Shown: in pieces, positions 1-63,822 of the stretch | How positions within the stretch are numbered: position 1 is the first letter of the stretch | Layout of the letters: every line of letters starts with the position of its first letter | Source: Squalus acanthias | Taxonomy: Eukaryota | Length of the DNA: 64,000 bases | Assembly (NCBI GenBank): GCA_030390025.1 | Contig: JASTWF010000341.1 | Span: forward strand, 374,001 to 438,000 | Direction of reading: 5' to 3' | The notes under the pieces: model-generated | The model's input: the letters and a program-made list of their open reading frames with translations, nothing else | Databases searched by the model: none | Told to the model about the DNA's origin: nothing | Program-made: the position numbers and the translations under genes

Positions 1-78
1 ATGCCGGTGTTGGACTGGGGTGGACAAAAATGAGAAGTCGCACAACACCAGGTTATAGTCCAACAGTTTTATTTAAAA

Positions 79-116
79 TTACGAGCTTTCGGAGCTGTTG
101 CCCCTTCGTCAGGTAA
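79..116 (-). ncRNA. Minimal hammerhead ribozyme, mirror copy
   Basis: Exact reverse complement of 1738-1775 (ttacgagctttcggagctgttgccccttcgtcaggtaa on +). Confidence 0.8.
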
Positions 117-371
117 AGGTACAATGAGGGAATCTATTACACAGTACATAAACACAGAAAGCAATTTGTCTGCAGAGATACAATCTTTCAGGGAGGCATT
201 ACATCAAAGACACACCAGAGCACAGCCAAGACAATGAGATGGGTCACAGGGGGTCCAACGTGTCAAATCCTGCTGTCTGCAGTTGAGCTTTTAACCTTTT
301 TTTTGTTTTTTTTTTGTTTTGTGCTTTTTAAAATATTTTTATAAACTGGAAAGACAGACAACGATGTCAAG

Positions 372-917
372 TCACGTTCTGTAGCGTGACATGAACCCGA
401 GATCCCTATTGAGGCCGTCCTCATGGGTGCGGAACTTGGCTATCAGTTTCTGCTCGATGATTTTGCGTTGTCGTGTGTTTCGAAGGCCGCCTTGGAGAAC
501 GCTAACCCGCAGATCCGAGGCTGAATGTCCTTGACTGCTGAAGTATTCCCCGACTGGGAGGTAACAATCCTGCCTGGCGATTGTTGCGCGGTGTCCGTTC
601 ATACGTTGTCTCAGTGTCTGCATGGTCTCGCCGATGTACAATGCTCCAGGGCATCCTTTCCTGCAACGTATGAGGTAGACAACGTTGGCCGAGTCACATG
701 AGTATGTACCACGTACCTGGTGGGTAGTGTCCTCACGTGTGATGATGGTATCTGTGTTGATGATCTGGCATGTCTTGCAGAGGTTGCCGTGGCAGGGTTG
801 TGTGGTGTCGTGGTCGCTGTTCTCCTGACAGCTGGGTAATTTGCTGCGAACGATGGTACTTTTGAGGTTAGGCGGCTGCTTGAAGGCGAGTAGTGGAGGC
901 GTGGGGATGGCCTTAGC
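372..917 (-). pseudogene. Second, inverted copy of the Penelope GIY-YIG endonuclease fragment
   Basis: Same protein as the + copy with 6 amino-acid differences (R/H, T/S, Y/H, L/Q, N/D, R/H); retains YIGET. Confidence 0.88.
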
Positions 918-1482
918 CGATGACGATGAACACCTTGCTAAGGCCATCCCCACGCCTCCACTACTCGCCTTCAAGCAGCCGCCTAACCTCAAAAGTACCA
1001 TCGTTCGCAGCAAATTACCCAGCTGTCAGGAGAACAGCGACCACGACACCACACAACCCTGCCACGGCAACCTCTGCAAGACATGCCAGATCATCAACAC
1101 AGATACCATCATCACACGTGAGGACACTACCCACCAGGTACATGGTACATACTCATGTGACTCGGCCAACGTTGTCTACCTCATACGTTGCAGGAAAGGA
1201 TGCCCTGGAGCATTGTACATCGGCGAGAGCATGCAGACACTGAGACAACGTATGAACGGACACCGCGCAACAATCGCCAGGCAGGATTGTTACCTCCCAG
1301 TCGGGGAACACTTCAGCAGTCAAGGACATTCAGCCTCGGATCAGCGGGTTAGCGTTCTCCAAGGCGGCCTTCGAGACACACGACAACACAAAATCATCGA
1401 GCAGAAACTGATAGCCAAGTTCCGCACCCATGAGGACGGCCTCAATAGGGATCTCGGGTTCATGTCACGCTACAGAACGTGA
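918..1482 (+). pseudogene. 5'-truncated Penelope ORF: linker plus GIY-YIG endonuclease, no RT
   Basis: PPLLAFKQPPNLK linker, C-x4-C-x2-C motif, NVVYLIRC...LYIGES...RQRMNGHR, HF, EQKLI and GLNRD are typical of the PLE GIY-YIG domain. The ORF-track N-terminus (841-917) is only the antisense of the other arm. Confidence 0.88.
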
Positions 1483-1737
1483 CTTGACATCGTTGTCTGT
1501 CTTTCCAGTTTATAAAAATATTTTAAAAAGCACAAAACAAAAAAAAAACAAAAAAAAGGTTAAAAGCTCAACTGCAGACAGCAGGATTTGACACGTTGGA
1601 CCCCCTGTGACCCATCTCATTGTCTTGGCTGTGCTCTGGTGTGTCTTTGATGTAATGCCTCCCTGAAAGATTGTATCTCTGCAGACAAATTGCTTTCTGT
1701 GTTTATATACTGTGTAATAGATTCCCTCATTGTACCT

Positions 1738-1775
1738 TTACCTGACGAAGGGGCAACAGCTCCGAAAGCTCGTAA
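1738..1775 (+). ncRNA. Minimal type I hammerhead ribozyme in the Penelope pLTR
   Basis: UUAC-CUGACGA-A-GGGGC-AACA-GCUCC-GAAA-GC-UC^GUAA: core CUGANGA and GAAA, 5-bp stem II, UUAC/GUAA stem I, vestigial palindromic stem III (AGCU), predicted cleavage after C1771. Confidence 0.8.
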
Positions 1776-2357
1776 TTTTAAATAAAACTGTTGGACTATA
1801 ACCTGGTGTTGTGCGACTTCTCATTCTTTTTCTCCATTATTTACATGATTTAAAAAGGACATATGTTCTCCCTTTACTTTCTATGAATGGATTGTTCTTG
1901 CTGAAGCTGTTATTGGCATAGCTCTGCACCAGGTAGGATTCTCTTACCATCAAATCCCCATTGACTACCACTTAGAGCAGATTCTCATTCACCATATTCT
2001 GAAATGTTTGACTCAAGCCATCGTGTCTAGCTTCTAACATCAAAGCACCCCTTAAGCATACCCCTCCAGCTCCAATTCAGTCCACCAAAAAACCTCATTC
2101 TAAATAATAATATCAGACAACTCAAAAACTTATTTATTTAATGGCTGTATTTAAGCTTAAACTGTATAAAGCATTGGCGAAAAATAAATAATTTTGGGTT
2201 TTTTCAGCATTGTATAATTTTAATGTTTTCGTTATGTTATAAATGTTGCTTTTAGCTATAAAATGGTGGCCAAAACCAGTATAAAAAGAGATTGATTTGC
2301 AGTTTTGATTGTTTGAGTTTGAATGGGTGACTGGTTTGTGATTGGTAGTTTTTTTTC

Positions 2358-2600
2358 AGTGTCAGCTGTGGCTCAGTGGGTAGCACTCTCGCCTGTGTCA
2401 GAAGGTTGTGGGTTCAAGTCCTACTCCAGAGACTTGAGCATAAAAAATATAGGCTGACACTCCAGTGCAGTGCTGAGGGAGTGCTGCACTGTCGGAGGTG
2501 CTGTCTTTTGAATGAGATGTTAAACCAAGGCCCCATCTGCTTTCTCGGGTGGATGTAAAAGATCCTATGGCACTATTTTTAAGAAGAGCAGGGGTTCCCT
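2358..2600 (+). mobile_element. tRNA-derived Deu-domain SINE (SacSINE1-like), 3'-truncated
   Basis: A-box tggctcagtgg, B-box ggttcaagtcc, followed by gagggagtgctgcactgtcggaggtg...gatgtaaaagatcc..ggcactattt, a Deu-like core. Sister copies at 6578, 36834 and 44455. Confidence 0.8.
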
Positions 2601-2673
2601 CACCCCTCCACCTTTAATGTACATGTGCCCAGCAAAACCTACATTGCCTCCCATTCCGGTCATCCAACCTGGT

Positions 2674-5560
2674 ACAGATACCTCGGGCAGTGTGGGTCTC
2701 CCAGTGTAGGAGACACAGATACCTCGGGCAGTGTGGATCTCTCAGTTTAGGATACACAGATACCTCGGGCAGTGTGGGTCTCAGTGTAGGAGACACAGAT
2801 ACCTCGGGCAGTGTGGATCTCTCAGTGTAGGAGACACAGATACCTCGGGCAGTGTGGATCTCTCAGTTTAGGATACACAGATACCTCGGGCAGTGTGGGT
2901 CTCCCAGTGTAGGAGACACAGATACCTCGGGCAGTGTGGGTCTCAGTGTAGGAGACACAGATACCTCGGGCAGTGTGGGTCTCCCAGTGTAGGATACACA
3001 GATACCTCGGGCAGTGTGGGTCTCCCAGTGTAGGAGACACAGATACCTCGGGCAGTGTGGATCTCTCAGTGTAGGAGACACAGATACCTCGGGCAGTGTG
3101 GGTCTCCCAGTGTAGGAGACACAGATACCTCGGGCAGTGTGGGTCTCCCAGTGTAGGAGACACAGATACCTCGGGCAGTGTGGGTCTCCCAGTGTAGGAG
3201 ACACAGATACCTCGGGCAGTGTGGATCTCCCAGTGTAGGAGACACAGATACCTCGGGCAGTGTGGGTCTCCCAGTGTAGGAGACACAGATACCTCGGGCA
3301 GTGTGGATCTCTCAGTGTAGGAGACACAGATACCTCGGGCAGTGTGGGTCTCCCAGTGTAGGAGACACAGATACCTCGGGCAGTGTGGATCTCCCAGTGT
3401 AGGAGACACAGATACCTCGGGCAGTGTGGATCTCTCAGTGTAGGAGACACAGATACCTCGGGCAGTGTGGGTCTCCCAGTGTAGGAGACACAGATACCTC
3501 GGGCAGTGTGGGTCTCAGTGTAGGAGACACAGATACCTCGGGCAGTGTGGGTCTCAGTTTAGGAGACACAGATACCTCGGGCAGTGTGGGTCTCAGTGTA
3601 GGAGACACAGATACCTCGGGCAGTGTGGGTCTCAGTGTAGGAGACACAGATACCTCGGGCAGTGTGGATCTCTCAGTTTAGGATACACAGATACCTCGGG
3701 CAATGTGGGTCTCAGTGTAGGAGACACAGATACCTCGGGCAGTGTGGATCTCTCAGTTTAGGATACACAGATACCTCGGGCAGTGTGGGTCTCAGTGTAG
3801 GAGACACAGATACCTCGGGCAGTGTGGGTCTCAGTTTAGGAGACACAGATACCTCGGGCAGTGTGGGTCTCAGTGTAGGAGACACAGATACCTCGGGCAG
3901 TGTGGGTCTCAGTGTAGGAGACACAGATACCTCGGGCAGTGTGGATCTCTCAGTTTAGGATACACAGATACCTCGGGCAGTGTGGGTCTCAGTGTAGGAG
4001 ACACAGATACTTCGGGCAGTGTGGGTCTCAGTGTAGGAGACACAGATACCTCGGGCAGTGTGGGTCTCAGTGTAGGAGACACAGATACCTCGGGCAGTGT
4101 GGGTCTCAGTGTAGGAGACACAGATACCTCGGGCAGTGTGGATCTCTCAGTTTAGGATACACAGATACCTCAGGCAGTGTGGGTCTCAGTGTAGGAGACA
4201 CAGATACCTCGGGCAATGTGGATCTCCCAGTGTAGGAGACACAGATACCTCGGGCAGTGTGGGTCTCAGTGTAGGAGACACAGATACCTCGGGCAGTGTG
4301 GATCTCTCAGTTTAGGATACACAGATACCTCGGGCAGTGTGGGTCTCAGTGTAGGAGACACAGATACCTCGGGCAGTGTGGGTCTCCCAGTGTAGGAGAC
4401 ACAGATACCTCGGGCAGTGTGGGTCTCAGTGTAGGAGACACAGATACCTCGGGCAGTGTGGGTCTCCCAGTGTAGGAGACACAGATACCTCGGGCAGTGT
4501 GGGTCTCAGTGTAGGAGACACAGATACCTCGGGCAGTGTGGGTCTCAGTGTAGGAGACACAGATACCTCGGGCAGTGTGGGTCTCAGTGTAGGAGACACA
4601 GATACCTCGGGCAGTGTGGATCTCTCAGTTTAGGATACACAGATACCTCGGGCAGTGTGGGTCTCAGTGTAGGAGACACAGATACCTCGGGCAGTGTGGG
4701 TCTCAGTGTAGGAGACACAGATACCTCGGGCAGTGTGGATCTCTCAGTTTAGGATACACAGATACCTCAGGCAGTGTGGGTCTCAGTGTAGGAGACACAG
4801 ATACCTCGGGCAGTGTGGGTCTCAGTGTAGGAGACACAGATACCTCGGGCAGTGTGGGTCTCAGTGTAGGAGACACAGATACCTCGGGCAGTGTGGGTCT
4901 CAGTTTAGGAGACACAGATACCTCGGGCAGTGTGGATCTCAGTTTAGGAGACACAGATACCTCGGGCAGTGTGGATCTCAGTGTAGGAGACACAGATACC
5001 TCGGGCAGTGTGGATCTCAGTGTAGGAGACACAGATACCTCGGGCAATGTGGGTCTCAGTGTAAGAGACACAGATACCTCGGGCAATGTGGGTCTCAGTG
5101 TAGGAGACACAGATACCTTGGGCAGTGTGGATCTCCCAGTGTAGGAGACACAGATACCTCGGGCAGTGTGGGTCTCAGTGTAGGAGACACAGATACCTCG
5201 GGCAATGTGGGTCTCAGTTTAGGAGACACAGATACCTCGGGCAGTGTGGGTCTCCCAGTGTAGGAGACACAGATACCTCGGGCAGTGTGGGTCTCAGTGT
5301 AGGAGACACAGATACCTCGGGCAGTGTGGGTCTCAGTGTAGGAGACACAGATACCTCGGGCAGTGTGGGTCTCCCAGTGTAGGAGACACAGATACCTCGG
5401 GCAATGTGGGTCTCAGTTTAGGAGACACAGATACCTCGGGCAGTGTGGGTCTCCGAGTGTAGGAGACACAGATACCTTGGGCAGTGTAGGTCTCCCAGTG
5501 TAGGAGACACAGATACCTCGGGCAGTGTGGGTCTCCCAGAGTAGGAGACACAGATACCTC
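2674..5560. repeat. Minisatellite of about 72 copies of a 39/41-bp unit, cagatacctcgggcagtgtgggtctc(cc)agtgtaggagaca
   Basis: Uninterrupted tandem units with few variants and no unique spacers. It accounts for all repetitive ORFs between 2614 and 5653. Confidence 0.98.
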
Positions 5561-6685
5561 AATTTCAAGGGGTGCAAACTTGAGCCTATAATACATCATA
5601 CACGCATGCACAAGATACATATGCTTAACAAGATGAGAAACAGACCATTTCATTTTAGAACTGGATCAACATATTTTTTTAAGATATCTTTTAAAAATAT
5701 GTTGACCCAGTTCTAAAATGGATTCCAAATGTTCTTTTGAAAACTGAAAGGCCTGTTCAAATAATCCTTTACAAAATGGTTTAGCATTGTGAATATTGAC
5801 AGGAGGGTGGAGGGAGATATCCTGTGTGTTGTCCAGTAAACAGTTTACCATGGTTGGTGTTACTGGCTAGAATTGGCTACATTACTTCAATATAAAGAAT
5901 AAAAGTTATAGGTTTTCATTCACAAGAATTTCTATCGGTTCGCACAAATTAATAAGCAGTTTGCACTAGAAAACAAGTTATTGGAAAACGTTTCAGCCTG
6001 AACAGGAAACATTTTGCTGGTCATCTGGATGTTACTCAGAGCATCTTGACCTGCCAGTACAGTTACTCATTAATTCAATGAAAATTGCTTTGGTATTTCT
6101 CATTGTGATTGGATTTAACAGTAGTTTTCTGCACTGTGTTTGGCTACCTATAACAGATCCCTTATATCCAGCATCACCCTTAAACACCCCATCCTCACAC
6201 CTAGAGAAAATAGGCTGAATCAGAATAAAAGGAAAATATTTTCAACTAGACTTAGATCATCAAGACTAGCTGCGTGACAACTGACAGGATAATGTCACTG
6301 AATATCACCTTCTTAAAAAGTGGCTGAGACTAACAGCTTTCAGAACGTCATATACAAGAGCATTTACAACTCAAAATGGTAGGAATTTGCTCTGTGGTTC
6401 AGGGACAAGCACCACTCACCCACAGTTTGCCTTATCTGAGATTCTATCGACAGTGACAATCTTGGCTTTTCTTGGCTTTTTTCTGACCATCTTGCTTCCC
6501 AGAGGGTACTGCCTAAATAATAACATTCTTGGATCTTAACATGTAATTTTCAACAAGTTTATACTCTGTTCTTTGACCCGGTGTCAGCCTTGGCTCAGTG
6601 GTCGCACACTTACTTCTGAACCAGAAGGTTGTGAGTTCAATTCCCACTCCAGAGACTTGAGCACCTAATTTAGATTGACACTTCT

Positions 6686-8089
6686 GGGGCGATTTTCCCA
6701 GCCCCGTGGAGGCGGGTTTGGAGGCGGGACAGTTGGCAAAATGGCAAAAACTGAGGGCGGGTTCGGAACCCGCCTCCGTGCAATTTTGCCAGAGGCGGGT
6801 TTGATGGGTGCGATTCGGTCCCGCCTCCATCAGTCAGGAGAGGTAGTTAAGACCCTTAAATAGCAGTTAAGGGCCTCTATAATCCTATTTTGACAGGCCT
6901 TCGTTATTTTACCACATTTTCAGCATGTTGCACAACCCTCCTAAACCACGCCAGCTGATCCTGGCGGGTTGACAAGTGGGTGGCCTCCTCACAGCTGCAG
7001 CTCCACCATTAAAATGGAGCTTTCATCAGGGAGCAGTTGCAGGTGGCAGAACTTTTGTTCCAAAAGTCTTTCAGCACTTTTAGCAGGCCTATCGAAGTCG
7101 GAGGTGCTGCAGCTTTTATCTCTCAACTGTGGGGCCTCCTTGGAAGACCCTCTCCCCGCTTGGACTGAGCGCTTCCCCAACGGAGGTATCTGCCAGCAGC
7201 ATGGGAACCATTTATTTCCTTTCACCATGGACCTCAGATTCGGATGAGGAGCAGCCACGGCAGCAGCAGAACCAGGCAGCTCAACAGCAGCAGGAGCCCC
7301 ACCCTCCTGCTCACCCACCTGATGCTGCACAGGGCAGAAGGCGCCTGCGCATGGAAGCACGTCGTGCAAGGAATGCACTCATCCTGGCCAGATTTGCATA
7401 GGTTGCCCATTGTGGCACATGTGCTTTGCTCCTTCTTAACACATGATAGACAATGGACATGACTCTCTGGCCTCCTTTCACTCTGACCACGCAAGTGTCG
7501 CGGAGCCCGCAATGTGGAGCTGCCTAAGCTGAAATAACAGATGCCATCATGCCAACAGTTTGCCATCACCTAATTTTAATACATTCCCACAGGGATGGCA
7601 TTTCATCAATAAACAGAAACAATCACCCAATCTGCTCACAGATCTGGAGGTTATATCCCTTACCAGCTGGACCCACACAGCCTTGGTTTCTTTGGGAGGC
7701 CTCTTCCTCCCAGATGAGGGGAAGAGCACCTCCCTGCTAGCTCTCGCCCCCTCAACCAGCATACACAGCGCCTCATCCGAGAACCTCGGGGAGGCCCTTG
7801 CCTTGGAGCTGGCCATTCTTCAAGGAGATAACAGCTTGGAGGTGTTGCAGCATCGACCAAAAACCAGTGGAATGAGCCAAGGCAGCAAGCAGCCCTTAAA
7901 TGAAGCTGGATAAGTGACGTCAGCAGAGGCGAGTTTCAGTCCCAAAACACTAATTGGCCCAGGGGAACCCACACCTCTGAAATCAACTGGCAAATTAGAG
8001 GAAAATCACAAATTTTTCCCACCTCTCAGTGGAGGCGGGTTTGGAACCCACCCAAACCGAAACCCGCCTCCATTGGGAAAATCGCGCCC
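6686..8089. mobile_element. Non-autonomous PIF/Harbinger DNA transposon (internal deletion derivative)
   Basis: TIRs ggggcgattttccca / tgggaaaatcgcgccc, subterminal ggaggcggg repeats at both ends, ttc on both flanks. Contains a Myb/SANT remnant on - and a putative transposase remnant on +. Confidence 0.8.
7620..7816 (-). pseudogene. Harbinger Myb/SANT-like DNA-binding protein, N-terminal fragment
   Basis: MASSKARASPRFSDEALCMLVEGARASREVLFPSSGRKRPPKETKAVWVQLVRDITSRS matches the RFS..E...LV...R..LF......W..(I/L) pattern of Harbinger/NAIF1-type Myb domains. Confidence 0.75.
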
Positions 8090-8899
8090 TTCAGTACGGA
8101 ACTGAGGGGTTGCTGCACTGCCGGAGATGCCTTTTTCTAGCTGAGAAGTTAGACTGAGGACCCACTGCCCGCTCAGGTGGATGTAAAAGATCTCACTGCA
8201 CTATTCGAAGCAGAGTAGGGGAATAGCCTTGCCAATATTTATTCCTCAACGAACACCACTAAAACTGATTATCTGGTTATTATTTCATTGCTGTTTACGG
8301 AACCTTGCTGTGCGCAAATTGGCTGCTGCGTTTCCTACCTTATAACAGCGACGACACTTCAAAAGTACTTCATTAGTTGTAAAGCACTTTGGCACTTATA
8401 TAAATACAAGTTCTTTCTTTTCTTTCTTTAATTTCTCTTCCCTCAGCTTAAAAGTTTTTATTCTGAAAAACAGAATGTTGTGATTATTCCAAGTTGAAGG
8501 ATCTGTGAACACCAAGTGCTCATGAAGGAATTCCTGAATGGTGTACATAACTTTACCTTAACAACCTGACAGAGTTCTGTGCAAACCACAATATGACCTC
8601 CTTATATTTCATGTCTTTGAAGAATGCAGTGCATTGGGAACATCTTATTCTGATTTTACAAAAGCCTCTTTAAAATGATCTTTGAAATCATTTTTCAAAG
8701 TAACAGAAGTTTATACTCATACTTGTAAACAGTCAATTAAATAAGGCTACAGAACGTACATATAGAGGAATCTATTGCATATAAATGCAAGTCTTTCTTT
8801 TTCAGGCTTTTTGTCTTCCAACTCTAATATCTTTTGTTGTCTACTTATTTCCTCTGTCCCTCATTTACATACATTCTTTAAATCCCATTAGTTTTATCT

Positions 8900-9620
8900 A
8901 TGCTGGAACTGGAGCGCACGCTGTTAGATTTTTTCCTGCATCCTTCAGCTCGAAAATGTTTTGTGCCGTAACTTGCTGCTAGTGTGAGCTGGTAACAGTG
9001 TAGCGAGAGCAACGGGGAGTCTGGGACCTTTGTTAATGGTGGGACTAACAGTGTTTCTCCTTAAATAATAAGATTTAAAGATTGAGAATGAAACAGAGGA
9101 GCAACGGCGAAGGAGGGTGAATTCGAGTCAAACCCGGTACAGAAAGAGAAATAAAGAGAGGAAAAGAAAGACTGGATTCAGAGGGTGAGAAAAAAGAGAC
9201 AGAAAGAAAAAGTAAGAAAAAATATTAAAAATTTAAAATTTGACATTTTTAAAATCTCTAACAACAATTCACTACATGCAGGAATGAAATTGAACACTTC
9301 AAATTATTCCCATTCTGAGTCAGAGAGGTTGATTGGGTTGGATTAACAATTATCACATTGATAAAAAGGTACTTACACTCTTAATTACCAGACTTAACTT
9401 TCTGTGGCGAGTTTAATGTGCAAATCGAACAAGTACTTAAAAATAAGGGGGAAGCTAAGGGCGAGATGCTGTTTGTGCGAAGCAAACGACAGCGCGGTGT
9501 TTTTCGACCAACAAGTTCTGCAGTTTCACAATTCATGGCGTATCTCTTAATCCCCTGAACTTGCTGGCCGATTTGCACATTAATAACGGCGTGCATCATT
9601 TTTCTAGCAAGATTGGCCCT
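8900..9620. mobile_element. Probable non-autonomous DNA transposon fragment (Harbinger-like right end)
   Basis: Ends in tagcaagattggccc, a GGG-type TIR on -. CpG-enriched ends around a purine-rich core. No left TIR found. Confidence 0.4.
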
Positions 9621-10591
9621 ATAGCTTTAAATGAGTGTGAAAATTCATAGCGTAGACTCGTATCAAGGTTATATTTCATTAGTTTAATTCTATTTTTGTT
9701 TTTTGTGCCTGTGCTTTCTGGTGATAGTACCTCCTTGTCCACACTCCAGAACATGGCTATACTGCCTATAGTTTTGTAGGCTCGCATTGACTGCTGCTTT
9801 GTAACTCAAAATAGGCATTTCCAGCCCATTATTGGTTGTCATTTCTGTTACCAGATGGGCTAAGAGAAGTGTTCTTGCCTTATTCCTCGGGAGTTTAAGG
9901 TCTGTTACTAAATCTCAATTTATATGAGAAAATATGAAAGGGCTGTAGTGCAATGTAATGGTGGTCCTTGCAAGAAAGGGAGTCTCTAGATTGGCTACAA
10001 AACATGGCAATAGTGTTCAATTACAGTCGCATAAACAACTTAATTGCTATTCTTTGTCTTTTTAAAAGTTTTTATACTATCAATATGACATGTTGCCTGT
10101 AATAAATTCACCAATGGATTGCAGGCTTGCAATCTAATTTCTCAAAGATATGAAACACAAGAAAGCTTGTATTACAGTTTATGCAGCAATTTTCTGCATT
10201 TTGGTGATATTGGTAGTGATGCTAAAGCAACTGTAAGATACCCTATTTCTGTATACAGATATATGTAGGATTAGGATTTGGTTTAATCTCATATGATTAA
10301 TTAAGGTTTTTGTTTTCTTTTGATTTATATAAAACTTGTGGATTTTGTACTGTAGCTAGAATAAATGAAATGGTTCAATTGTTAATTCCCAGGATGCTTT
10401 AGGGTTTAATGTATCAGTGCACAATTTATCTGCCGGCTGTTTATTTTCTGCTGAGGTGCAAGATGTGTCATTCGTGCTGTTTACTTCTTTTTGTCAATAC
10501 ATTGGAAACAAGTTAGTTTTGAGATAGGAAATGGGACAATGACCAAGATGATTAGTTACATGCTTAATGGTAAATAAGTTAACATCTGATT

Positions 10592-11138
10592 TTTTTTAAA
10601 ATTCGTTCATGGGATATGGGCGTCGCTGGCAAAGCCAGCATTTATTGCCCATCCCTAGTTGCCCTTGAGAAGGTGCCTTCTTGAACCGCTGCGGTCCATG
10701 TCGTGAAGGTACTCCCACAGTGCTGTTAGGGAGGGAGTTCCAGGATTTTGACCCAGCGACGATGAAGGATCGGCGATATACTTCCAAGTCAGGATGGTGT
10801 GTGACTTGGAGAGGAACTTGCAGGTGGTGGTGTTCCCATGCGCCTGCTGCCCTTGTCCTTCTGGGTGGTAGAGGTTGCGGGTTTGGGAGGTGCTGCTGAA
10901 GAAGCCTTGGCGAGTTGTTGCAGTGCATCTTGTAGATGGTACACACTGCAGCCACGGTACGCCGGTGGTGGAGGGAGTGAATGTTTAAGGTGGTGGATGG
11001 GGTACCAATCAAGCGGGCTGCTTTGCCTTGGATGGTGTCGAGCTTCTTGAGTGTTGTTGGAGCTGCATTCATCCAGGCAAGTGGAGAGTATTCCATCACG
11101 CTCCTTACTTGTGCCTTGTAGATGGTGGAAAGGCTTTT
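10592..11138 (-). mobile_element. LINE 3' fragment (family B: CR1/L2-group, RT C-terminus plus 3' UTR)
   Basis: YKAQVRSVMEYSPLAW...LDTIQGKAARLI, with a poly-T (poly-A on -) at about 10590. Highly similar to 25614-26150 and 35665-36200. Confidence 0.88.
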
Positions 11139-12024
11139 GAGCATCTACATATTAGATATAAATTTGTTCGGACTATACAGGAAATGTTCAGCCTAACTAT
11201 TGTCACAATTTCTCTTGCTATTCAAATGATCATTATCAATAGGCACTTTGATATTGTTGCCAAGGACCTAATTGTGGAAGAACTAACAGGATAAATCCCA
11301 CATAGTTGTTAATAGCTTATAATTTTACTGGCCAAGATAATTTACTCAAGGGGAATAATATTGTTATGCCCTACAGGAAGTTTTATGTGAGTGTATTTTT
11401 GAATGTGCAGATCAAATGTACAAGAGTCTGGCCGCCAGATTTAGCAGCACAGTTTTACTGCTCACAGCCTATATTGAAGTCAGTCATGCAAGCAGCTAAG
11501 TAATCCAAAGCGCTCTCTGTTGGAGCATTGCAGAGTGCCCCACAATTTTCTGGTTAAACACTTGGTCTGTCACTCAAAATGACCGTAGGTTTTTCCTTGC
11601 TTAAATCTTTTCAGTGAATATTGTTGGGTGCTAAGTCGCAGAGCGTATTTGTCATTGTGTGTCAAAACAGATTCCACTTCCAAATCTTTGATTCTAATCC
11701 ATTTTTTGAACTGAAATGTGGTCCATGCAAACATGACCTTAAAAACAATTTGCATACAGGATTGCACATAATCTTACTAGTAGTTAAATAAATCTGAGTC
11801 TGTAAACAGTGACTTAGTGGAAAAATGATTATTGCAGAATATCTTGAACATGCATACAGTTTGTAAATCCATGCAATCTGATAATTCTTGGGAAGTTATG
11901 CTTCCTTAAAGTTTTCCATTTGCAATTAGTTTGGAGATAAAACTCTATTCCATTTTCAATAGGAAAACTTAAATTAACTATACCACTAAAAATTGTAAGT
12001 TTAAATTTTTCAGGGTGAAAATCA

Positions 12025-12157
12025 CGGGATAGAATTTCTGTGGGGGCTCTTCCGTTCTCCCATCGTAACGTTGGCCGTTTATGCCATTTCTCTGCGGTTT
12101 CTGCCAATCTTCCACCGAAGCTACGGGATGAGGTCGGAAGAACCCCCGTGGAAATGA
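12025..12157. mobile_element. Short palindromic MITE
   Basis: atttctgtgggggctcttc ... gaagaacccccgtggaaat form imperfect inverted ends. Related copies at about 15826-15985, 23183-23370 and 55915-56088. Confidence 0.5.
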
Positions 12158-12337
12158 CTAGCACATATTTTTAACGAGGTACATACTCCACAATGACTGT
12201 TGAATAAACTTCCACATGCTATTGCACCACAAAGTATCGAAGTAAATGATAGTGAAACCCAGGAGTCAAAAAGAGAATGCTTACTACTGTACTCCAGTTT
12301 ACTGGGATGTGCCACTTGCCGCCATGTGATTCTCCTC

Positions 12338-13440
12338 AAACAACAACAACAACTTGTATTTGTATAGCACCTTTAACGTAGTAAAACGTCCCAAGGCGCT
12401 TCACAGGAGTTTTATAAGACAAAAAATTGACACCGAGCCACATAAGAAATTAGTGCAGGTGACCAAAAGCTTGGTCAAAGAGGTAGGTTTTAAGGAGCGT
12501 CTTAAAGGAGGAAAGAGAGGTAGCGAGGTGGAGATGTTTAGGCAGGGAATTCCAGAGCTTAGGGCCCAGGCAACAGAAGGCACAGCCACCAATGGTTGAG
12601 CGATTATGATCAGGGATGCCCAAGAGGGAAGAATTAGAGGAGTGCAGATATCTCGGGGGGGGGGTTGTGGGGCTGGAGGAGATTACAGAGATAGGGAGGG
12701 GCGAGGCCATGGAGGGATATGAAAACAAGGATGAGAATTTTGATATCGAGGCACTGCTTAACCGGGAGCCAATGTAGGTCAGCGAGCACAGGGGTGATTG
12801 GCGAATGGGACTTGGTGCAAGTTAGGACACAGGCAGCTGAGTTTTGGATGACCTCAAGTTTATGTAGGGTAGAATGTGGGAGGCCAGCCAGGAGTGCGTT
12901 GGAATAGTCAAGTCTAGAGGTAATAAAGGCATGGATGAGGGTTTCAGCAGCGGATGAGCTGAGGCAATGTTGCAGAGGTGGAAATAGGCGGTCTTTGTTA
13001 TGCTGCAGATATGTGGTCGGAAGCTCATTTCAGGGTCAAATATGACACCAAGGTTGCGAACAGTGTGGTTCAGCCTCAGACAGATGTTAGAGAGAGGGAT
13101 GGAGTCGGTGGCTAGGGAACTGAGTTTGTGGCGGGGACCGAAAACAATGGCTTCGGTCTTCCCAATATTTAATTGGAGAAAATTTCTGCTCATCCAGAAC
13201 TGGATGTCGGACAAGCAGTCTGACAATTTAGAGACCGTGGAGGGGTCGAGAGAAGAGGTAGTGAGGTAGAGCTGGGTGTCGTCAGCGTACACGTGGAAAC
13301 TGATGCTGTGTCTTCAGATGATGTCGCCAATGCACAACATGTAGATGAGAAATAGGAGGAGGCCAAGGATAGATCCTTGGGGGACACCAGAGGTAACGAT
13401 GCAGGAGCGGGAAGAGAAGCTGTTGAAGGTGATTCTCTCC
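12338..13440 (-). mobile_element. L2-clade LINE 3' fragment (RT)
   Basis: GVPQGSILG, YADDTQLY, WMSRNFLQLNIGKTE, GPKLWNSLP...FKTLLKTYLF, and a (GTT)n tail at 12338-12354. Confidence 0.9.
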
Positions 13441-14039
13441 TCATCTTCAGTAGGCAGATTAAAAGTGCACTCCATCAGACCAGGGCTCAGCGTACAAACC
13501 AACAGACCATTTACTTAACATAGAACAGGTAAGTAAACAGTATTCATTGCAAACCAGTGTGTTTACAAACTATGCTATTCTATCCAATATATCAAATAGA
13601 ACAAAATGCTTCTCCTGAACTATCTCTCAACATAATATTGAACCTAGCAAACATTTGCTCAATTACATTTACATGGCCACACTACCACAGAGTAGGAGTA
13701 GTCTATTCTCCCTACTGGCCTCAGACTAACTCACCTCATAAATTCAGCCACAGAAATATTATTCCAAATCTTTTGATGGTGTACTGAAACAAAGCCCCAT
13801 TTAATAAAGCCTGCATTTCCTTTAACTGCAATTAGATTGGATAGTTATTCACCAGAATTATCTGTGATAGTTGGAACAGATATTTTGTCTATTCGGCTAT
13901 CAGGGACATTGCTCAACAAATTGACACACACTAATGTATGTTGAATACACAGGCGTGAATTAAATCCCCTTTTGTTCAACGGGAACAAGCCACAGACTTA
14001 CTAATTATAAATGTTGAACCACATAGCCAGAACTGGAGA

Positions 14040-14600
14040 ATGCAAGTCAGTGGAAATTACAACCAAACTGTACAGTGCTCTGGTCAGACCGCACTTTGAA
14101 TACTGCATCGAGTTCTGCTCGCAAGACACAAGGCTAACATTCAAGCGCTAGAAGCAGTGCAGAGAAGAGCCATGAGGCTTATTGTTATTGCCAAAGGGCT
14201 GGATTGTGAGGAAAGACTGGAGAGACTTTGGCTTTTCAGCCTGGAAAGGAGCCATCTGAGAGGTGATCATATAGAGATATATAAGTTAGTTAAAGGAATG
14301 GAAAAGGCTTTACTTTAAGAGTATTACTTTAAGTTGTGTCATGAGATTAGGACAAGTCGACACAGATTCAAGCTAGCAAAATTTAAAACTACTATCAGGG
14401 AAATTTTTGTTCACACAAAGAGTGTTAAGCATATGGAACAGGCTTCCAGGAAGAGTGGTGGAGGTGAAAACCCTGGAATCTTTTAAGAAATACAGTAACT
14501 GAATGCTGAAATGGAGGACCTCTAGCATCTCTCTAGATGGATCAGTTAAGATGTACCAAAAACCTTCCTCATCTGTAATTATCTCGTGGTGTTGTAATTA
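14040..14600 (+). mobile_element. Old CR1 LINE 3' fragment
   Basis: LYSALVRPHFEYCIEF...LEAVQRRAMRL and FFTQRV-like sequence, with many disruptions. Confidence 0.7.
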
Positions 14601-14898
14601 CATATACATGTTGTATTCAGGCAACCTATCTAGGTTTTAAGCTGTTGTGTTTTTGAAAGGGCTGATAAATTTCTGTCGTATTTCTGTTCCTCTGCAGCTC
14701 CAGTCTATGTTAATTATTCTACTTAACAAAGTTGATATGGAAAGTATCAAGAAACTAAAATGCTTCAGTTATCACAAAAATCCATTGGCACTAATAATGT
14801 CATCCACCAGTGTTACTTAACTAGATTACCTAATAAATTAGCTGCTTCAGTCATTAAAATATTATTACTGTAAGCTATGTGGTTAACATTTGAACATC

Positions 14899-16724
14899 GG
14901 CCAGAATTTTCCTTACCTTGGTGGGTCCGGTGCCCGTGGCGGGTCACGACCCCACTGCTGGCTCCATCCCACTGTAGAAAATGAACTTACCTTAATGGGG
15001 TCTATTAAGCCTGCCCAGCACGTTACCCAGCCCAATTAGATGGAGCAGGTCTGGTGACGTCATTCATGACGCGTTTTAAGCCGGGATCCTTAAAGGGACC
15101 CTGACCACATTAAATTTTAAGTTTTTCTAACATAGTGGGTGTTGAATCTTTACTGTACAATAATATAATAAAAGTTATATATGAGTGACAAAGAAGTATT
15201 TAAATAATATTATCATTAAGTAACATGACGCCATCTACAAATACGATCAAGAACATAATTTAAAAAACACATTACAGGAAACTTTCGTTTATCCGGCATC
15301 GACGGGACCGGCGTGGTGCCGGTTTATCGAAAGTACCGGATAACAGAGAGTTATATCTACCGAGGCTATTTTTAACAAAGAGACTCCAAGCAGCACGGGA
15401 GAATCTACTCATGCTACTGCAATGTTTCGGACTTGCGACAGCGCCAGGAGGCCGAGTAGTGGCACTTTTGAAAAGTACCCCTACTGACTAAATCGGCGTT
15501 CGCGGACTCAGACTCGGACTCGGGATCGGCAACATTGCCGGTTATTTGAGAGGATTTTTCGGAGCACTCGGCGTTCGCGGAGACTCGACTGCGACTCGGC
15601 AACATTGCCGGTTATTTGAGAGGAGTTTTCGGAGGATGATTTTTGCCGGTTAAGCGAGAATTCCGGATATTTGGGTGCCGGATAAACGAAAGTTTCCTGT
15701 AATTGGGAAGTTATTGGTGCATTAGTCACAAATCTATAGACTTTTGTATCAGTAACTGGTACAAATAAAAGATGTGTGTTTATAGGTAATACATAAAATT
15801 AAGCAGATTTTAAATGTAATTGTAAAGGGGTGGATTTACAATCTTATGCAAGTTCAGCGGAAGAGCTGCGGAATCCCTGACAAACAGTGTAAGTGGTGCT
15901 TACAATGTGTTTCTGGGATTTCTGCAGCTCTTCCGTTGAAGTTAACAATGGACAAGTGAGAGAACCTCTGCAGAAATTCACCCTAAAGTCTCAAACTGAA
16001 AAATTAAATTCAGGGACTGAAAGCAAATTGAACCAGTGGAATGAGTGACGAGAATTAAATCGTTATGGTTAATGACTTGATTTAATCTGTAACTGGACAA
16101 TCACAGTATACTGTAAGAAAAACCTGACCAAAAACAACACAAAAATTTATTTAAATGGTATATTTCATTTTTTATAGTGCAGATCAATTCACTGCAATTA
16201 CTGTTGAGTTGGAAGGTAACAGCCGAGAATGGCCAGTGAAAATGTATTTCCCTCACCATCCAAGGTAGCACTTACATCCGTTCAGGAATTTCTGAATTAA
16301 TATTTACCAGTAGCTTTTCAAGTAGAACAGAATCTCCTTCAATCTGTTAGCTGATGTAATCAACATGTTTTTATTTTGGTTTGTTTTCCATGCTGTCAAG
16401 TAATCAGCTGGAGCAATGGCTAAGGAACTCACGCCTCAGGTTGATAGACATGGTTCCCGAATTGTGTGAATCTCGTGGCCATGCAGGGAAATTTAAAAAG
16501 TAAGGGGGAAAAGGCTCTTAAGTGCCTGTAAAGTACCTCATAATGATTTCAGTTGGGTCCCCCGCCGCTGCAGGTCGGGTCGGCTCCACGATGACAGACG
16601 TGCCTGTGGGAAAGACGCGTGGGAGCGAGATGACAGTGGGTTCCCAACCCGCTGTCAAAAATAACAACTTTCCCACCCGACCCGCCACCAATCTCGCCCG
16701 CTAGCACCCCAGAAAATTCAGCCC
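14899..16724. mobile_element. Possible Harbinger-like element, or two separate GC-rich end fragments, enclosing a Tigger MITE
   Basis: The ends ggccagaattttc and gaaaattcagccc are imperfect inverted repeats with GC-rich subterminal blocks. The interior is AT-rich and unassigned. Confidence 0.4.
15275..15699. mobile_element. Tigger/pogo-type MITE
   Basis: Perfect 24-bp TIR caggaaactttcgtttatccggca / tgccggataaacgaaagtttcctg, TA on both flanks. The interior matches both ends of the 46683-49073 element. Confidence 0.93.
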
Positions 16725-17259
16725 ATAGTTTTTCGTGAAAATAATATTTGTGTATTATTGCAACCTGTAATTACAGTTGCCAATTACTGTGTAAACTTCA
16801 ACACTGGGTGTATATTTTTGACTTTGCAGGGGCTGCAGCATGAGGTAAAACATCTTGTAAAGGAAGAAACACCTGGGTTGGCAAATATTTAACAAATTTT
16901 ACTTGAGTGTAAGCACCCAGATGTGGAACAGGTGGTGAAGGCTTTAAAGCTGGAGTTGGTTATTTCATAAAGCAGAACAAAGTGGTTGTAAGCTTTGTAT
17001 CATAATTTATCTGAGTCGCAGATGAAAGGTTTTAGACAGCGTAAGGATTAAACTAAGTTTTTTTATCACCACTCTGAAGCATTCACAATATGTTTTGATT
17101 ACTTTAATAACCTCAGCTTCAAAACATGGGCTCTCTCTGAGGAAAAGCCATAAAAATAAGATGACCCCATCTGTTTAGTGATAAAATCTTAAGATGTTAG
17201 GTACAAGGTGTGGATAAAAAAACACTCAAATGTAATTTGTCCTCTTTCTTTCACAGACC

Positions 17260-17344
17260 ATGTCGGGCCTAGCTGATGAGACAGCAGGAGACCTCCCTGT
17301 GAAGGATGTAGGCATGAGCCTGGCTGGAATTGGTGGATTGCAAG
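17260..17344 (+). CDS. RPGRIP1L: RPGRIP1L first coding exon (exon begins at 17257)
   Basis: ttcacag|accATG; translates [28 protein letters not shown] (human as recalled: [16 protein letters not shown]). 85 coding nt, donor gttgga. Confidence 0.95.
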
Positions 17345-21767: not shown

Positions 21768-22448
21768 CAAATTAGGATGAGGAAAGATCTCTGTCTCTCT
21801 CATCTTAATGAGATTTCTAAGGTTTATACAACACAAAGCAAAAGTTACAGCAGGTATGCAATAAGTAGTCGGTCTTTTTTGTATTTTTAAAAAAGTACAT
21901 AGCCTGTCTGTTTTGCATGCAAGAACCACATGGAAACATTTGAACAGAACACAGTTATTAATTGGAGTGAACAGTAATGTCTAAAATAAGGGGCTAGACA
22001 AAATTAAAAAGTAAAAAATTACATACAACACGATAACATAATTAAACTTAACCACATTTGTCTTTTAATAAAAAAATTATTTGAAGGCCTCGCCTGTCCT
22101 GAAACCTGGACTTGTGATATTGTTAGCTTAATTCAGATTAAGTCGTCTGAGTATATGTAGTGCACCCACTTTCTGAGGATGCATTGGTACCATTTAGTAG
22201 TTGAGCTGCTGGAATATTTATAGCTTCCAGCAGTTTGTGCTCAAGTGTTTTTCAGAATTATTTGAAGAAAAATTAGGGAACAAAATTCAAAAACTTTATT
22301 CAAAACAGATAGGCTATGTGCTTTTTAAAAAATATAAAAAAGACCGACTACTTATTGCACAGCTGTTGTAACTTTTGCTTTGTGTTGTATAAACTTTAGA
22401 AATCTCATTAAGATGAGAGAGGCAGAGATCTTTCCTCATCCTAATTTG
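21768..22448. repeat. Inverted repeat: 148-bp arms (21768-21915 and 22301-22448), 385-bp spacer
   Basis: caaattaggatgaggaaagatctctg...ctgttttg versus its reverse complement; about 9 mismatches by manual comparison. Confidence 0.92.
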
Positions 22449-46660: not shown

Positions 46661-46682
46661 TGCCTAGGATATATGTATACTA

Positions 46683-49073
46683 CAGGAAATTCTTTGGCAT
46701 CCGGCACCGATGGGACCGGGGTGGTGCCGGTTGAATAAAAATTCCAGATAACAGAGAGTTATATCTACCGAGGCTATTTTTAACAAACAAAAATTTAAAA
46801 AATCAAGAAATGTGCAGTATACAGTAATTGGGTACTCACCTACAGAATGTTGTGTTAAATGGATGGTGGAAGATGCTTGATTAAGTACAGTACTGCCAGT
46901 TGAGGGTAATCCATAACTCTTTAATTACTTAACAGTAAAACAAAACTTATAAACGACTGTATACAGTACTGTAGTTGACTGTACACTTATTCCAAGTCAG
47001 CTGGTTCATCAGGAATATCCATGCCAGCTGGGTCATCAGGATCATGCACTTCAACAGATTCTTCAGGCACTTCCGCTGCTTCAACTCTTTTGGAAGCTTT
47101 CTTAAACATGTCCCGGATGTCTGCTTGCTTAGTGGACTCTTGCCTTTTCTGTAGAAAGGTGGACTGCAGAATATGGAGGTGCATAACTTCTTGGGCAGAG
47201 TAGCAAGGCTGCCTTTCAGCAAATTGGAGGATTGAAGTAAATCCTTCTGCAGCTTTAGCCCAAGAAATCTTCTTCTCTTCAGAAATCTCATCCTCTTCAC
47301 TTTCCATCTCACTTTCCTTTTCTTTCTTTGGATTCAAAACATTCTCAATTATTTCATCATCACTTAGCATATGCACAACAGCAACTTCTCTATCTGCATC
47401 AACCCACTGCTCGATATCACTTTCACTGAGGTGACGTAGAGGGTTTGCTGGGCCTACATTTTTCACCATGCCTGCCATTTCCATTATTGTACTCTTCTTG
47501 GGACGAACATTGAACCCATGAAATTCCTCCTCCTCTGAAGAACCTTCAACAAACATTACAGAAGGCCACAATTTGCACCAGCCTTGCCTCAGAGTGTGAC
47601 TTTCACCAAGTTCCAGGAACATGCAACATTATAGATGGCATCTTTAAGATTGTATTCCTTCTGAAATGCGTGAATATTGTCATCTTGGTTTATCAGTTTA
47701 CGTAGGAAGTCTTTCTTGTAATGACACTTCAGATTTTGGATAACGCCCTGGTCCATGGGTTGCATGAGAGAAGTTACATTTGGTGGCAAATAAATGGTGA
47801 AAATATTTCCCGAAACCAACTCGGATTCATGCGGATGGGCTCTACAATTATCAAGCAATAAAATGCATTTGCTATCTTCAGGTTTCCCTATTTTACGGAA
47901 ATGTTCCCTCACAGATGGAACAAAAATATGATGGAACCAATATGAAAAGATTTCCTTATCCATCCAAGCATTTTTTTGAGCTTTGTACTCAACAGGTAAG
48001 TGCCTCACATTTTTAAATGCACGGGGATTTTTATATTTCCCAATAACAGGAAGTTTAACCCGGTGTGATCCAGCAGCGTTCGCACATGTTAGCACGGTTA
48101 CACGATCTTTATTTTTCTTGTAACCTGAAGCATTAGCCTCACTAGCCCCAGCGAGCGTTGATTCTGGCAAAAACCTCCAAAATAAGCCAGCTTCATCGGC
48201 ATTATATATCTGTGCTGGCGATAAATCATGTTGCTGCACAATCCAATTGAAATAATCGCAGTATTCTTCTGCGGCGTCATGATCAGCTGATTTCTTCTCC
48301 CCGGAAATATCGAGTCGTCGTATCCCGTGCCGTAACTTGTAGCACGTTAGCCATCCCTCGGAGAAAGCACACTTGTCAGTGAGCTCCATCCTTACTTAGA
48401 AATCCTTTGCTTTCTCGATTAGCATGGGTCCGGAAAGTGGAACACCCTCTGAACGCTTAAGAGAAAACTACTCATAAAGCACGGTATCCAGCTCTTCAAG
48501 CTTAGGCTTATGAAGCGTACGCCGTTTCTCTACACTCTTAGATGTCTCCGAGCTTGAATAAAACTTGAGCAGCTTATCCTTCTGCGATTTGATGTCGTAG
48601 ATTGTTGACGAACCGATTTTGAATTCATTCATAATGTTGATACGCTTCTCTCCCCTTTCTAGTCGTTGGCATATCTCGATTTTCTGTTTTAAAGTTAACA
48701 CCACTCTCTTCCTTTTGCTTGGACCAACTTTTGGGAATTCTATAATGCAAGATGGGGGAGATAATTCACGATAAAGATGGAGAGACACACAGAAAAATGG
48801 TGGATCGGAAGAGACTACCAGCAGCGCGGGAGACACACAGTAAAATGGCGGATCAGAAGAGACTACCGGCAGCGCGGGAGAATCAGACTCCTGTTATTGC
48901 GGTGTTCGGACTTCCGACAGCGCCAGGAAGCCGAGTAGTGGCACTTTGGAGAACTACCCCCACTGACTAACTCGGCGTTCGCGGGAGACTCGGACTTGGA
49001 CTCGGCAACATTGCCGGTTATTGAGGAGTTGTTTTCGGAGTATGAATTTTGCTGTTTAAACGAGAGTTTCCTG
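46683..49073 (-). mobile_element. Tigger/pogo (Tc1/mariner superfamily) DNA transposon, near full length
   Basis: ta|caggaaattctttggcatccggca ... aaacgagagtttcctg|ta. The right TIR is shortened by a deletion. Encodes a decayed transposase. Confidence 0.93.
46987..48744 (-). pseudogene. Tigger/jerky-like transposase (HTH-psq, CENP-B HTH, DDE_1) with a stop and two frameshifts
   Basis: [15 protein letters not shown]...[10 protein letters not shown], then LDTVLYE* (TAG at 48468-48470), [50 protein letters not shown]. Frames shift near 48390 and 47600. Confidence 0.93.
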
Positions 49074-63271: not shown

Positions 63272-63636
63272 TTTGTGATTCATAAAACTGTGTAAAGTAT
63301 TTAAAAATGTTTACTAAAATATCAAATAATGACTCTTTGGAATAAGATGTCCTCAATTTTAAATAAAGCATTATTTTTCTTGCTTTCATGAGGACAGAAG
63401 TCATAATGTTGGAAAACGCAATTTTTGACTTGCCCATCTGGTGAGAATGCATTGATTCCACATCAGCGAATGCCTGATTAGTGAACCAAAATCAAGGGAG
63501 CCAAGCCACTTTCCATTTGGAATCAATTAATATTTTTAGTTGTAAATTCATGCCAAGCAAATACTTTGGTGCCTAGATTATATGTTTGCCATGTTCACAG
63601 GCCACACTGCTTAAATTTGGCAATTTTGAGCACCAT

Positions 63637-63822
63637 GGGCGGAACTTTAGGCTTCAGCATGGGTGTAAAACGGGCAATATCGGATCAGCTGCCCATTATA
63701 CAACCCGCCTGATTTTCCTTTCCTCTGTCTTCAATGGAAAGGAAAATCGAGCAGGCCGTATAAAGAGCGGCCGATCCAATATCACCCATTTTACACTCCC
63801 TCTAAAGTTGAAACTTCCAGCG
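63637..63822. mobile_element. Hairpin (fold-back) MITE
   Basis: Symmetric about gattttcctttcc-tctgtcttcaat-ggaaaggaaaatc; outer pairs gtgtaaaa/ttttacac and atatcggatc/gatccaatat. Confidence 0.7.

What the first reader, a model, noticed from the sequence alone, without database searches (positions are those of the whole stretch)
29..1825. 1.8-kb palindromic Penelope element: two divergent GIY-YIG endonuclease arms
Seen: 889-bp arms around a 19-bp spacer. The spacer reads in frame only on + (DDDEHL), so the + copy is the native 5'-truncated element and the left arm is its fold-back. At least 7 substitutions separate the arms, several of them CpG-type, while both endonuclease frames stay open to the stop. 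Known: PLEs often insert as partial tandem or inverted structures, and long palindromes with short spacers are usually unstable. Inference: the structure arose by snap-back priming at the truncated end. Any read-through transcript, including a RPGRIP1L pre-mRNA if this is intron 1, would form an about 890-bp dsRNA, a potential endo-siRNA or ADAR substrate that could silence the family.
Basis: partly seen in the sequence, partly recalled or inferred. Interest (0 to 1): 0.7.

Follow-up and report, generated by a model that had tools for sequence, protein, structure and literature searches.

The report
Head-to-head Penelope-type insertion in a shark
This is a broken, mirror-image copy of a very abundant shark jumping gene (a Penelope-like retrotransposon) lying upstream of the RPGRIP1L coding exons; such mirror-image insertions are a known habit of these elements, and only the uneven outer ends say something useful about how they form.

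Summary
The palindrome is in the sequence: arms 29-917 and 937-1825, a 19-nt spacer and 7 substitutions. It is a 5'-truncated, head-to-head insertion of a high-copy shark Neptune-type Penelope-like element (PLE). Each arm holds a zinc-finger linker, a GIY-YIG endonuclease remnant and a minimal hammerhead. The spacer is native to the + copy.

An inverted copy with a tail at one end is the published PLE layout (PMC8557442, PMC3846280). This asymmetry argues against a read chimera and against a simple snap-back from the right arm; the turn has no usable pairing either. Only 1 of 7 differences is CpG decay, and open frames are expected by chance (0.81).

The centre junction was not confirmed by reads. 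Transcription, siRNA and editing at this locus are untested; siRNA from inverted Penelope copies is already published. There is a weak hint of arm-to-arm conversion (one-sided p 0.056-0.093). The scan noted small palindromic PLE insertions in another shark genome before (e1-7858806). Verdict: ordinary member of a known kind.

The parts
1..28 (-). Family 3' extension ('tail') on the left arm only; runs off the window start
   Evidence: Not mirrored at 1826-1853. Its reverse complement matches the loose-end consensus of family contigs behind 1825 in runs X1, X5 and X7 (table 7).
29..917 (-). Left arm: 5'-truncated PLE copy (linker, endonuclease remnant, 3' repeat), 19 nt shorter at its 5' end than the + copy
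   Evidence: tblastn of the + frame matches 917-375 at 96.7%.
79..116 (-). Minimal type-I hammerhead motif, left-arm copy
   Evidence: Core pattern at 83-112; same fold as the + copy. Not found by Rfam.
372..917 (-). Endonuclease remnant of the left arm; three private amino-acid changes, one replacing the last His of the CCHH motif
   Evidence: His in 26 of 27 close homologs at this column.
918..936 (+). 19-nt spacer: native element sequence of the + copy, with no pairing at the turn
   Evidence: Loose ends before 918 in 4 of 4 runs; homologs; pairing scan.
937..1825 (+). Right arm: 5'-truncated PLE copy ending short of the tail
919..1482 (+). Linker plus GIY-YIG endonuclease remnant (187 aa), with no RT and no native start; three private amino-acid changes
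   Evidence: 90% identical over 99% of its length to the C-terminus of a 643-aa shark protein that carries an RT domain (P0121).
1060..1086 (+). C-x4-C-xx-C linker motif, the mark of Neptune/Nematis-type PLEs
   Evidence: Read in the translation; present in 45 of 59 homologs with enough upstream sequence; definition in PMC8557442.
1738..1775 (+). Minimal type-I hammerhead motif: 4-bp stem I, core, 5-bp stem II with an extra 5' base, and a palindromic 4-mer in place of stem III
   Evidence: matches the description in PMC4209133. Cleavage not tested.
1826..1850 (.). Right junction into T/A-rich unique DNA; the exact end is ambiguous over 1825-1828
   Evidence: One contig of run X1 covers 1802-2350 without gaps (table 8), but only 24 of its letters lie on the element side, under the tool's 31-letter bar for bridging.
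17260..17343 (+). Context, not part of the element: first coding exon of RPGRIP1L (protein fantom), preceded by a splice-acceptor-like tract
   Evidence: 28 of 28 residues identical to the N-terminus of P0152.

Best explanation
A dead, 5'-truncated insertion of a very abundant shark Neptune-type Penelope-like retrotransposon, built as a head-to-head inverted pair during one integration event from one source copy.

Shown: the anatomy, family membership, native spacer, tail on the left arm only, and rare letters shared by both arms.

Inferred mechanism, which I favour only slightly over fold-back (about 0.45 against 0.4): the element's RT-endonuclease cut both target strands and primed reverse transcription from both ends on RNA of the same source. 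One start lay at the tail-inclusive site (left arm) and one at or near the tail-less site (right arm). The two cDNAs stopped 19 nt apart and were end-joined without homology. The arms have since picked up about 3-4 neutral changes each. If read through, the locus would fold into an 889-bp hairpin, one of many such substrates in this genome and with no special role.
For: Family: 135 of 159 candidates are homologs at E<=0.001, the best named ones from sharks; relatives with an RT domain in front of the same region.

Known layout: an inverted 5'-truncated copy with a 30-40-bp tail often at one end only (PMC8557442 passages; PMC3846280 passages). In vitro an anole PLE cuts and extends both target strands and starts RT at two sites that bound the tail (PMC11167929, parts 1-2 of 4 read).

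One source: both arms share five residues seen in none of the close homologs (0/60, 0/61, 0/33, 0/28, 0/18), share the letter at 1214 that has no depth in contigs of X1, X11 and X7, and have no indel between them, even in the A-rich tract.

Independent decay: three coding differences are private to each arm.

Recurrence: 6 of 11 listed joints in family contigs are strand switches (4 'opposite strands', plus 909>967 and 911>1062, which leave from the left-arm stub, table 5).
Against: No contig or read spanning the centre 917-937 was listed (one search shows 32 of over 34,000 pieces), so the junction itself is unverified. The left outer end and any target-site duplication lie outside the window, and no genome is held. 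Two independent cDNAs ending only 19 nt apart needs a shared template end or coupling, which fold-back explains more simply. Another family joint (909>967 in X5) has a 5-nt microhomology of the kind snap-back predicts. The right arm ends about 8-10 nt short of where many family contigs diverge in the tail, so it may be trimmed rather than primed there. The two-start result comes from a Poseidon-clade element, not a Neptune-type one.
Confidence: 0.8

Rival explanations
1. Fold-back (self-priming) during integration, followed by loss of sequence. Either the tail-bearing LEFT arm was the first strand, folded back at or beyond 918, and later lost its inner 19 nt as the perfect centre was repaired. 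Or a hairpin intermediate was resolved by staggered endonuclease cuts that removed the tail from the right arm. This is the reader's idea with the primary arm reversed or an extra trimming step; it competes only for the mechanism step of the best explanation.
For: It explains the same-source letters and the short spacer in one step. PMC3846280 (Discussion read) reads head-to-head PLE palindromes as self-priming, and PMC8557442 (passages) ascribes the one-sided tail to endonuclease resolution. The 909>967 joint with 5 shared letters in X5 fits either snap-back or a centre deletion.
Against: At most 1 paired base at this turn. It needs a second event (trimming or centre loss) to put the tail on the arm without the spacer.
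Confidence: 0.4
2. The insertion is older than the arm difference suggests and the arms are kept alike by arm-to-arm gene conversion or hairpin repair.
For: One X1 contig carries the same right junction but differs from the window at 10 of 525 flank letters (1.9%), against 7 of 889 (0.8%) between the arms, although the arms hold 38 CpGs and the flank 3. Five shared private residues against three private ones per arm. Six of 7 differences cluster in 247 nt (simulation p 0.035).
Against: Not significant: Fisher one-sided p 0.056, two-sided 0.077, and 0.093 if the two adjacent flank changes count as one event. It rests on one contig of depth 5.5 with 6 transversions in 10 differences and only 24 element letters. 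Shared private letters are equally explained by a decayed source copy. The cluster test was chosen after seeing the data.
Confidence: 0.2
3. A single PLE copy was duplicated in inverted form after insertion by a replication or repair error, unrelated to retrotransposition.
For: Short spacers without homology also arise in repair-type fold-back (general knowledge, not tested here).
Against: Both arms stop at the element's 3' end and no flank is duplicated; the left arm has element tail that the right lacks.
Confidence: 0.07
4. Assembly or read-chimera artefact (fold-back reads).
For: The centre is not confirmed by any listed contig, and no laid run matches the window exactly.
Against: A chimera would mirror the flank as well, but 1-28 is family tail and not the mirror of 1826-1853. 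The arms differ by 7 substitutions split between both arms relative to the family, with no indels.
Confidence: 0.04
5. The locus is a functional silencer: read-through in the RPGRIP1L 5' region makes a hairpin whose small RNAs repress the family, or the structure is kept for its effect on the host gene.
For: An 889-bp, 99.2% stem follows from the sequence. The ATG exon at 17260 begins after an acceptor-like tract, so an upstream exon exists. In D. melanogaster, siRNAs match the inverted parts of Penelope copies (PMC3681739 passages).
Against: The upstream exon and promoter were not located, so the intron-1 position is unshown. The same paper says such siRNAs did not silence Penelope efficiently. 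The family is very abundant and has other fold-back joints, so one locus adds little. All 6 coding differences are amino-acid changing, as expected for neutral decay.
Confidence: 0.06

Closest known systems
Canonical EN+ Penelope-like elements with an inverted 5'-truncated copy and a one-sided tail (Craig et al. 2021, PMC8557442, passages read; Arkhipova et al. 2013, PMC3846280, passages and Discussion read)
   Same: Head-to-head inverted arrangement, 5' truncation, tail at one end only, hammerhead in the 3' repeat, C-terminal GIY-YIG domain.
   Different: Here the two copies are almost equal in length, so nearly the whole 1.8-kb insert is one palindrome with a 19-nt loop; there is no RT part and no tandem copy within the window.
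Neptune clade of PLEs
   Same: C-x4-C-xx-C linker motif ahead of the GIY-YIG domain; CCHH motif (intact in the right arm); vertebrate host.
   Different: No RT phylogeny was run and no Repbase reference was available, so the clade rests on the linker motif, which Nematis shares; the family has no name that I could find.
Poseidon element of Anolis carolinensis (PAc; Frangieh et al. 2024, PMC11167929, parts 1-2 of 4 read)
   Same: Hammerhead in the terminal repeat, AT-rich target, tail present at one end; its two RT start sites and two-strand cleavage offer a mechanism for this layout.
   Different: Poseidon clade, without the linker zinc finger; the parts read do not address inverted junctions.
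Rearranged Penelope copies with long inverted repeats in Drosophila (PMC3681739, passages read)
   Same: Inverted PLE copies as a source of double-stranded RNA; siRNAs there match the inverted regions.
   Different: Shown there by small-RNA data in flies; nothing of the kind is shown for this locus.

Membership tests
EN+ Penelope-like elements | Single ORF with RT followed by a C-terminal GIY-YIG endonuclease | tested here: met
   Met for the family, not the locus: P0121 (643 aa, PF00078) is 90% identical over 99% of the fragment, which matches its C-terminus. The locus itself is truncated and has no RT.
EN+ Penelope-like elements | GIY-YIG domain | tested here: inconclusive
   The arms have no Pfam match; 6 of 20 aligned rows match PF01541, best E 2.3e-5. 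The structure model was unusable (mean pLDDT 36.5). The label holds through homology.
EN+ Penelope-like elements | CCHH motif within the endonuclease | tested here: met
   Cys, Cys, His, His present in the right arm; the last His is replaced in the left arm.
EN+ Penelope-like elements | Minimal hammerhead motif in the terminal repeat | tested here: met
   Motif and stems at 1738-1775 and mirrored at 79-116, the only two pattern hits in the window; features as in PMC4209133. Rfam gave no hammerhead match. Activity not tested.
EN+ Penelope-like elements | [quoted passage not shown] | tested here: met
   At least 26-28 nt of tail on the left arm only; its full length is cut by the window edge.
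EN+ Penelope-like elements | Dispersed, multi-copy family with inverted or tandem insertions | tested here: met
   17,064, 12,797, 1,764 and 2,467 contigs laid in the four runs; 6 of 11 listed joints switch strand.
EN+ Penelope-like elements | Target-site duplication (variable in PLEs) | not testable with these tools
   The left end lies beyond the window and no genome is held.
Neptune clade | CX2-5CxxC motif in the RT-endonuclease linker | tested here: met
   1060-1086 in both arms; 45 of 59 homologs; definition in PMC8557442. Shared with Nematis.
Neptune clade | RT phylogeny places it with Neptune elements | not tested
Penelope/Poseidon clade in the strict sense | [quoted passage not shown] | tested here: not met
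   The motif is present.
Hairpin endo-siRNA or ADAR-edited locus | Transcribed through both arms, with small RNAs or A-to-I edits that map to this locus | not testable with these tools
   All 20 listed runs are contigs, not raw reads; contigs cannot show strand, level or editing.

The most novel reading that the evidence does not exclude
Near-perfect, kilobase-scale PLE palindromes with tiny loops persist in shark genomes across lineage splits and are kept alike by arm-to-arm conversion. Together with the tail sitting on the arm without the spacer, they would record a two-ended priming route of PLE integration that can be scored on thousands of copies.
Probability: 0.2. Interest if true: 0.55.

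Novelty: new member of a known kind. Interest (0 to 1): 0.27.

Why it matters
As a single locus it matters little: inverted PLE insertions, one-sided tails and siRNA from them are all in print. Its use is as a clean example for an open question, how PLEs build the inverted junction (self-priming against priming from both target ends). The side on which the tail lies relative to the spacer separates the models, and sharks appear to hold enough copies to count it. If arm-to-arm conversion were confirmed, it would show concerted evolution in small autosomal palindromes and would mean that arm identity understates insertion age.

Tried and rejected
No whole genome is held, so copies with the same geometry could not be counted.

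Searches for other copies with flanks found none: a 25-nt pattern from the 3' repeat gave 0 matches in viral, prokaryote and metagenome contigs, and the alignment search of metagenome contigs gave 126 pattern hits, none confirmed.

Rfam gave 9 weak matches, all below their gathering scores; six reflect the hairpin centre and none is a hammerhead. Rejected as chance.

The AlphaFold model had mean pLDDT 36.5, so no fold search was run. The PDB sequence search with P0121 gave nothing under E 0.49. The ESM Atlas look-up of the RPGRIP1L exon was uninformative.

RNA: run X11 (RNA only by guess) holds family contigs but nothing beyond 1879, and its A>G count (7) is like that of the DNA runs (8, 8, 6). 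Contigs cannot show expression or editing, so this is evidence neither way.

Searching 150 homolog proteins for antisense-plus-sense chimeras gave 1 weak case (P0144, 50% over 33 aa); not used.

An in-frame ATG 12 nt before the native frame exists on both strands, but it comes from the antisense arm and needs only one 1-in-3 coincidence; rejected as a sign of a stand-alone nuclease gene.

A promoter-like CpG island in 1826-17256 was not evident, and a loose motif for an FTO first exon found nothing; the CpG-rich patches seen look like repeats (only partly checked). The head-to-head FTO-RPGRIP1L layout is recalled; the passages read in PMC5441178 did not state it.

Literature: 7 searches listed no paper on palindromic PLEs in sharks or on conversion between PLE arms; the library lacks most subscription papers and I read no supplements.

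Full report
Observation. The longest inverted repeat in the window has arms 29-917 and 937-1825 (889 bp), a 19-nt spacer, 7 substitutions and no indels. Stop-to-stop frames of 217 aa lie at 829-1482 (+) and 372-1025 (-). No other copy of the arm lies in the window.

What it is. The 187-aa frame 919-1479 has 135 homologs among 159 candidates of similar length, the best named ones from sharks at 76-89% identity. Among longer proteins, 30 of 294 candidates match at E<=1e-20; P0121 (643 aa, RT domain PF00078) is 90% identical over 99% of the fragment, which corresponds to its C-terminus. The arms have no Pfam match themselves, but 6 of 20 aligned rows match GIY-YIG. A C-x4-C-xx-C motif at 1060-1086 is shared by 45 of 59 homologs. 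PMC8557442 (passages) gives this linker motif as the mark of Neptune and Nematis, not Penelope/Poseidon, so I call it Neptune-type; no RT tree was run. Each arm carries a minimal type-I hammerhead (1738-1775 and 79-116) of the dimer-dependent kind described in PMC4209133 (passages); Rfam does not detect it. The host gene is RPGRIP1L on the + strand, with nine coding segments from 17260 to 59089, so the organism is a shark.

What the public runs add. Four runs, all contigs, were laid on 880-2350. Summed depth is about a million over most of the arm in the two large DNA runs and about 5 over the unique flank. The tool warns that this is not a copy number, but the family is clearly very abundant. 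In 4 of 4 runs, contigs leave the window at 918 and continue into upstream coding sequence, which proves that the spacer is native to the + copy. Contigs that leave after 1823-1825 continue with the letters that the window shows, reversed, at 28 to 1 (with variants in the first two letters), and then disagree with each other. The left arm therefore carries at least 26-28 nt of the family's 3' tail that the right arm lacks, and the insertion runs past the window start. Six of the 11 listed joints switch strand, so inverted junctions recur in this family; the orientation of four of them is not given. No listed piece spans this locus's centre, but only 32 of over 34,000 pieces are shown, so the centre is neither confirmed nor contradicted.

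The seven differences. Against 73 homologs of 70-96% identity, three coding differences are private to the left arm (712, 545, 479) and three to the right (1229, 1343, 1388). The right-arm ones are also rare in family contigs; 147/1707 is unresolved. Only 1388 is CpG decay. All six coding differences change an amino acid, one removes the last His of the CCHH motif in the left arm, and open frames are expected by chance with probability 0.81. This is neutral decay. Both arms also share five residues found in none of the close homologs, so they come from one source copy or have been homogenised. The homologs are from other or unnamed species, so some of these residues may be subfamily traits.

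Artefact? Unlikely. A fold-back chimera mirrors everything to the end of the read, yet 1-28 is family tail rather than the mirror of the right flank, and the differences fall on both arms.

Mechanism. The layout, an inverted 5'-truncated copy with a tail at one end, is described as typical of PLEs (PMC8557442 passages; PMC3846280 passages and Discussion). The copy holds element sequence that the supposed template lacks, and the turn has at most 1 paired base with the native upstream letters. Two routes remain. In the first, both target strands were primed on RNA from the same source, at two start sites. In vitro, an anole PLE cuts and extends both strands and starts at two sites that bound the tail (PMC11167929, parts 1-2 of 4). 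In the second, a fold-back was followed by loss of sequence: either the left arm came first and later lost its inner 19 nt, or the right tail was trimmed during resolution. Self-priming is the reading in PMC3846280, and a different family joint (909>967, 5 shared letters) fits it. I put these at about 0.45 and 0.4; both are inference. The 0.8 given to the best explanation is for the overall identity: a real, dead, inverted PLE insertion formed at integration from one source.

Possible conversion. One X1 contig (580 nt, depth 5.5) covers 1802-2350 with 10 differences. Nine are listed in the flank at that depth, and I infer that the tenth is 1836. That is 1.9% in the flank against 0.8% between the arms. 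If the palindrome predates that split, about 17 arm differences would be expected, not 7. The contrast is not significant once both counts are treated as samples (Fisher one-sided 0.056, two-sided 0.077; 0.093 with adjacent changes merged). It rests on one low-depth contig with only 24 element letters and says nothing about the left arm in that sample. I keep it as a lead at 0.2.

The dsRNA idea. A read-through RNA would form an 889-bp stem; that follows from the sequence. The ATG exon of RPGRIP1L starts after an acceptor-like tract and no promoter-like CpG island was evident between the palindrome and that exon. An intron-1 position is therefore plausible but not shown. No locus-specific RNA evidence could be obtained from contigs. 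The idea is in print: siRNAs match inverted Penelope regions in D. melanogaster yet did not silence the element efficiently (PMC3681739 passages), and Penelope is heavily edited in lizard (PMC5625713 passages). With so many copies and other fold-back joints, this locus is unlikely to matter for family silencing.

Earlier scan notes. e1-7858806 reports small palindromic PLE insertions in another shark genome, and eight listed notes on this genome describe a Tx1 LINE that targets an abundant hammerhead-bearing PLE end. I did not test their claims beyond confirming that such a family is abundant and forms inverted joints. A look-up by sequence and one near this place returned nothing.

Verdict. 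A real feature, correctly spotted, and an ordinary new member of a known kind. Seven literature searches listed no paper on shark PLE palindromes, but the architecture is published for PLEs in general. Interest 0.27; the tail-versus-spacer asymmetry is the part worth a genome-wide count.

Noticed in passing
window 909-967 (run X5, table 5): One contig (depth 11.3, like the X5 flank depth) joins 909 to 967 through a 5-nt repeat. It is either another family copy's snap-back junction or a centre-deleted allele of this palindrome.
   Followed up: partly
window 2610-5650: A 3-kb minisatellite of mixed 39- and 41-nt units starts about 800 nt right of the palindrome and gives a strong GC skew.
   Followed up: no
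window 5651-5720, 15850-15943, 63624-63835: Short self-complementary elements (70-210 nt) without the hammerhead core; probably remnants of non-autonomous DNA transposons.
   Followed up: partly
window 21768-22448: A 681-nt element with 151-nt terminal inverted repeats at 93%, just after the second RPGRIP1L coding exon; looks like a MITE.
   Followed up: no
window 46681-49068 and 15273-15700: A decayed transposase-like frame set on the minus strand (46987-48893) that resembles Tigger/pogo elements (label recalled, not tested), with a CpG-rich, shorter relative of its ends at 15273-15700.
   Followed up: no
proteins P0059, P0115, P0125, P0127, P0139, P0141, P0145: Annotated shark host-gene isoforms (for example septin 5a, XRCC5, a cytochrome P450) contain pieces of this endonuclease at 70-85% identity: exonisation or annotation error from a very abundant family.
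   Followed up: no
window 907-909 and 945-947: The antisense arm supplies an in-frame ATG just before the endonuclease remnant on both strands; judged a coincidence.
   Followed up: yes
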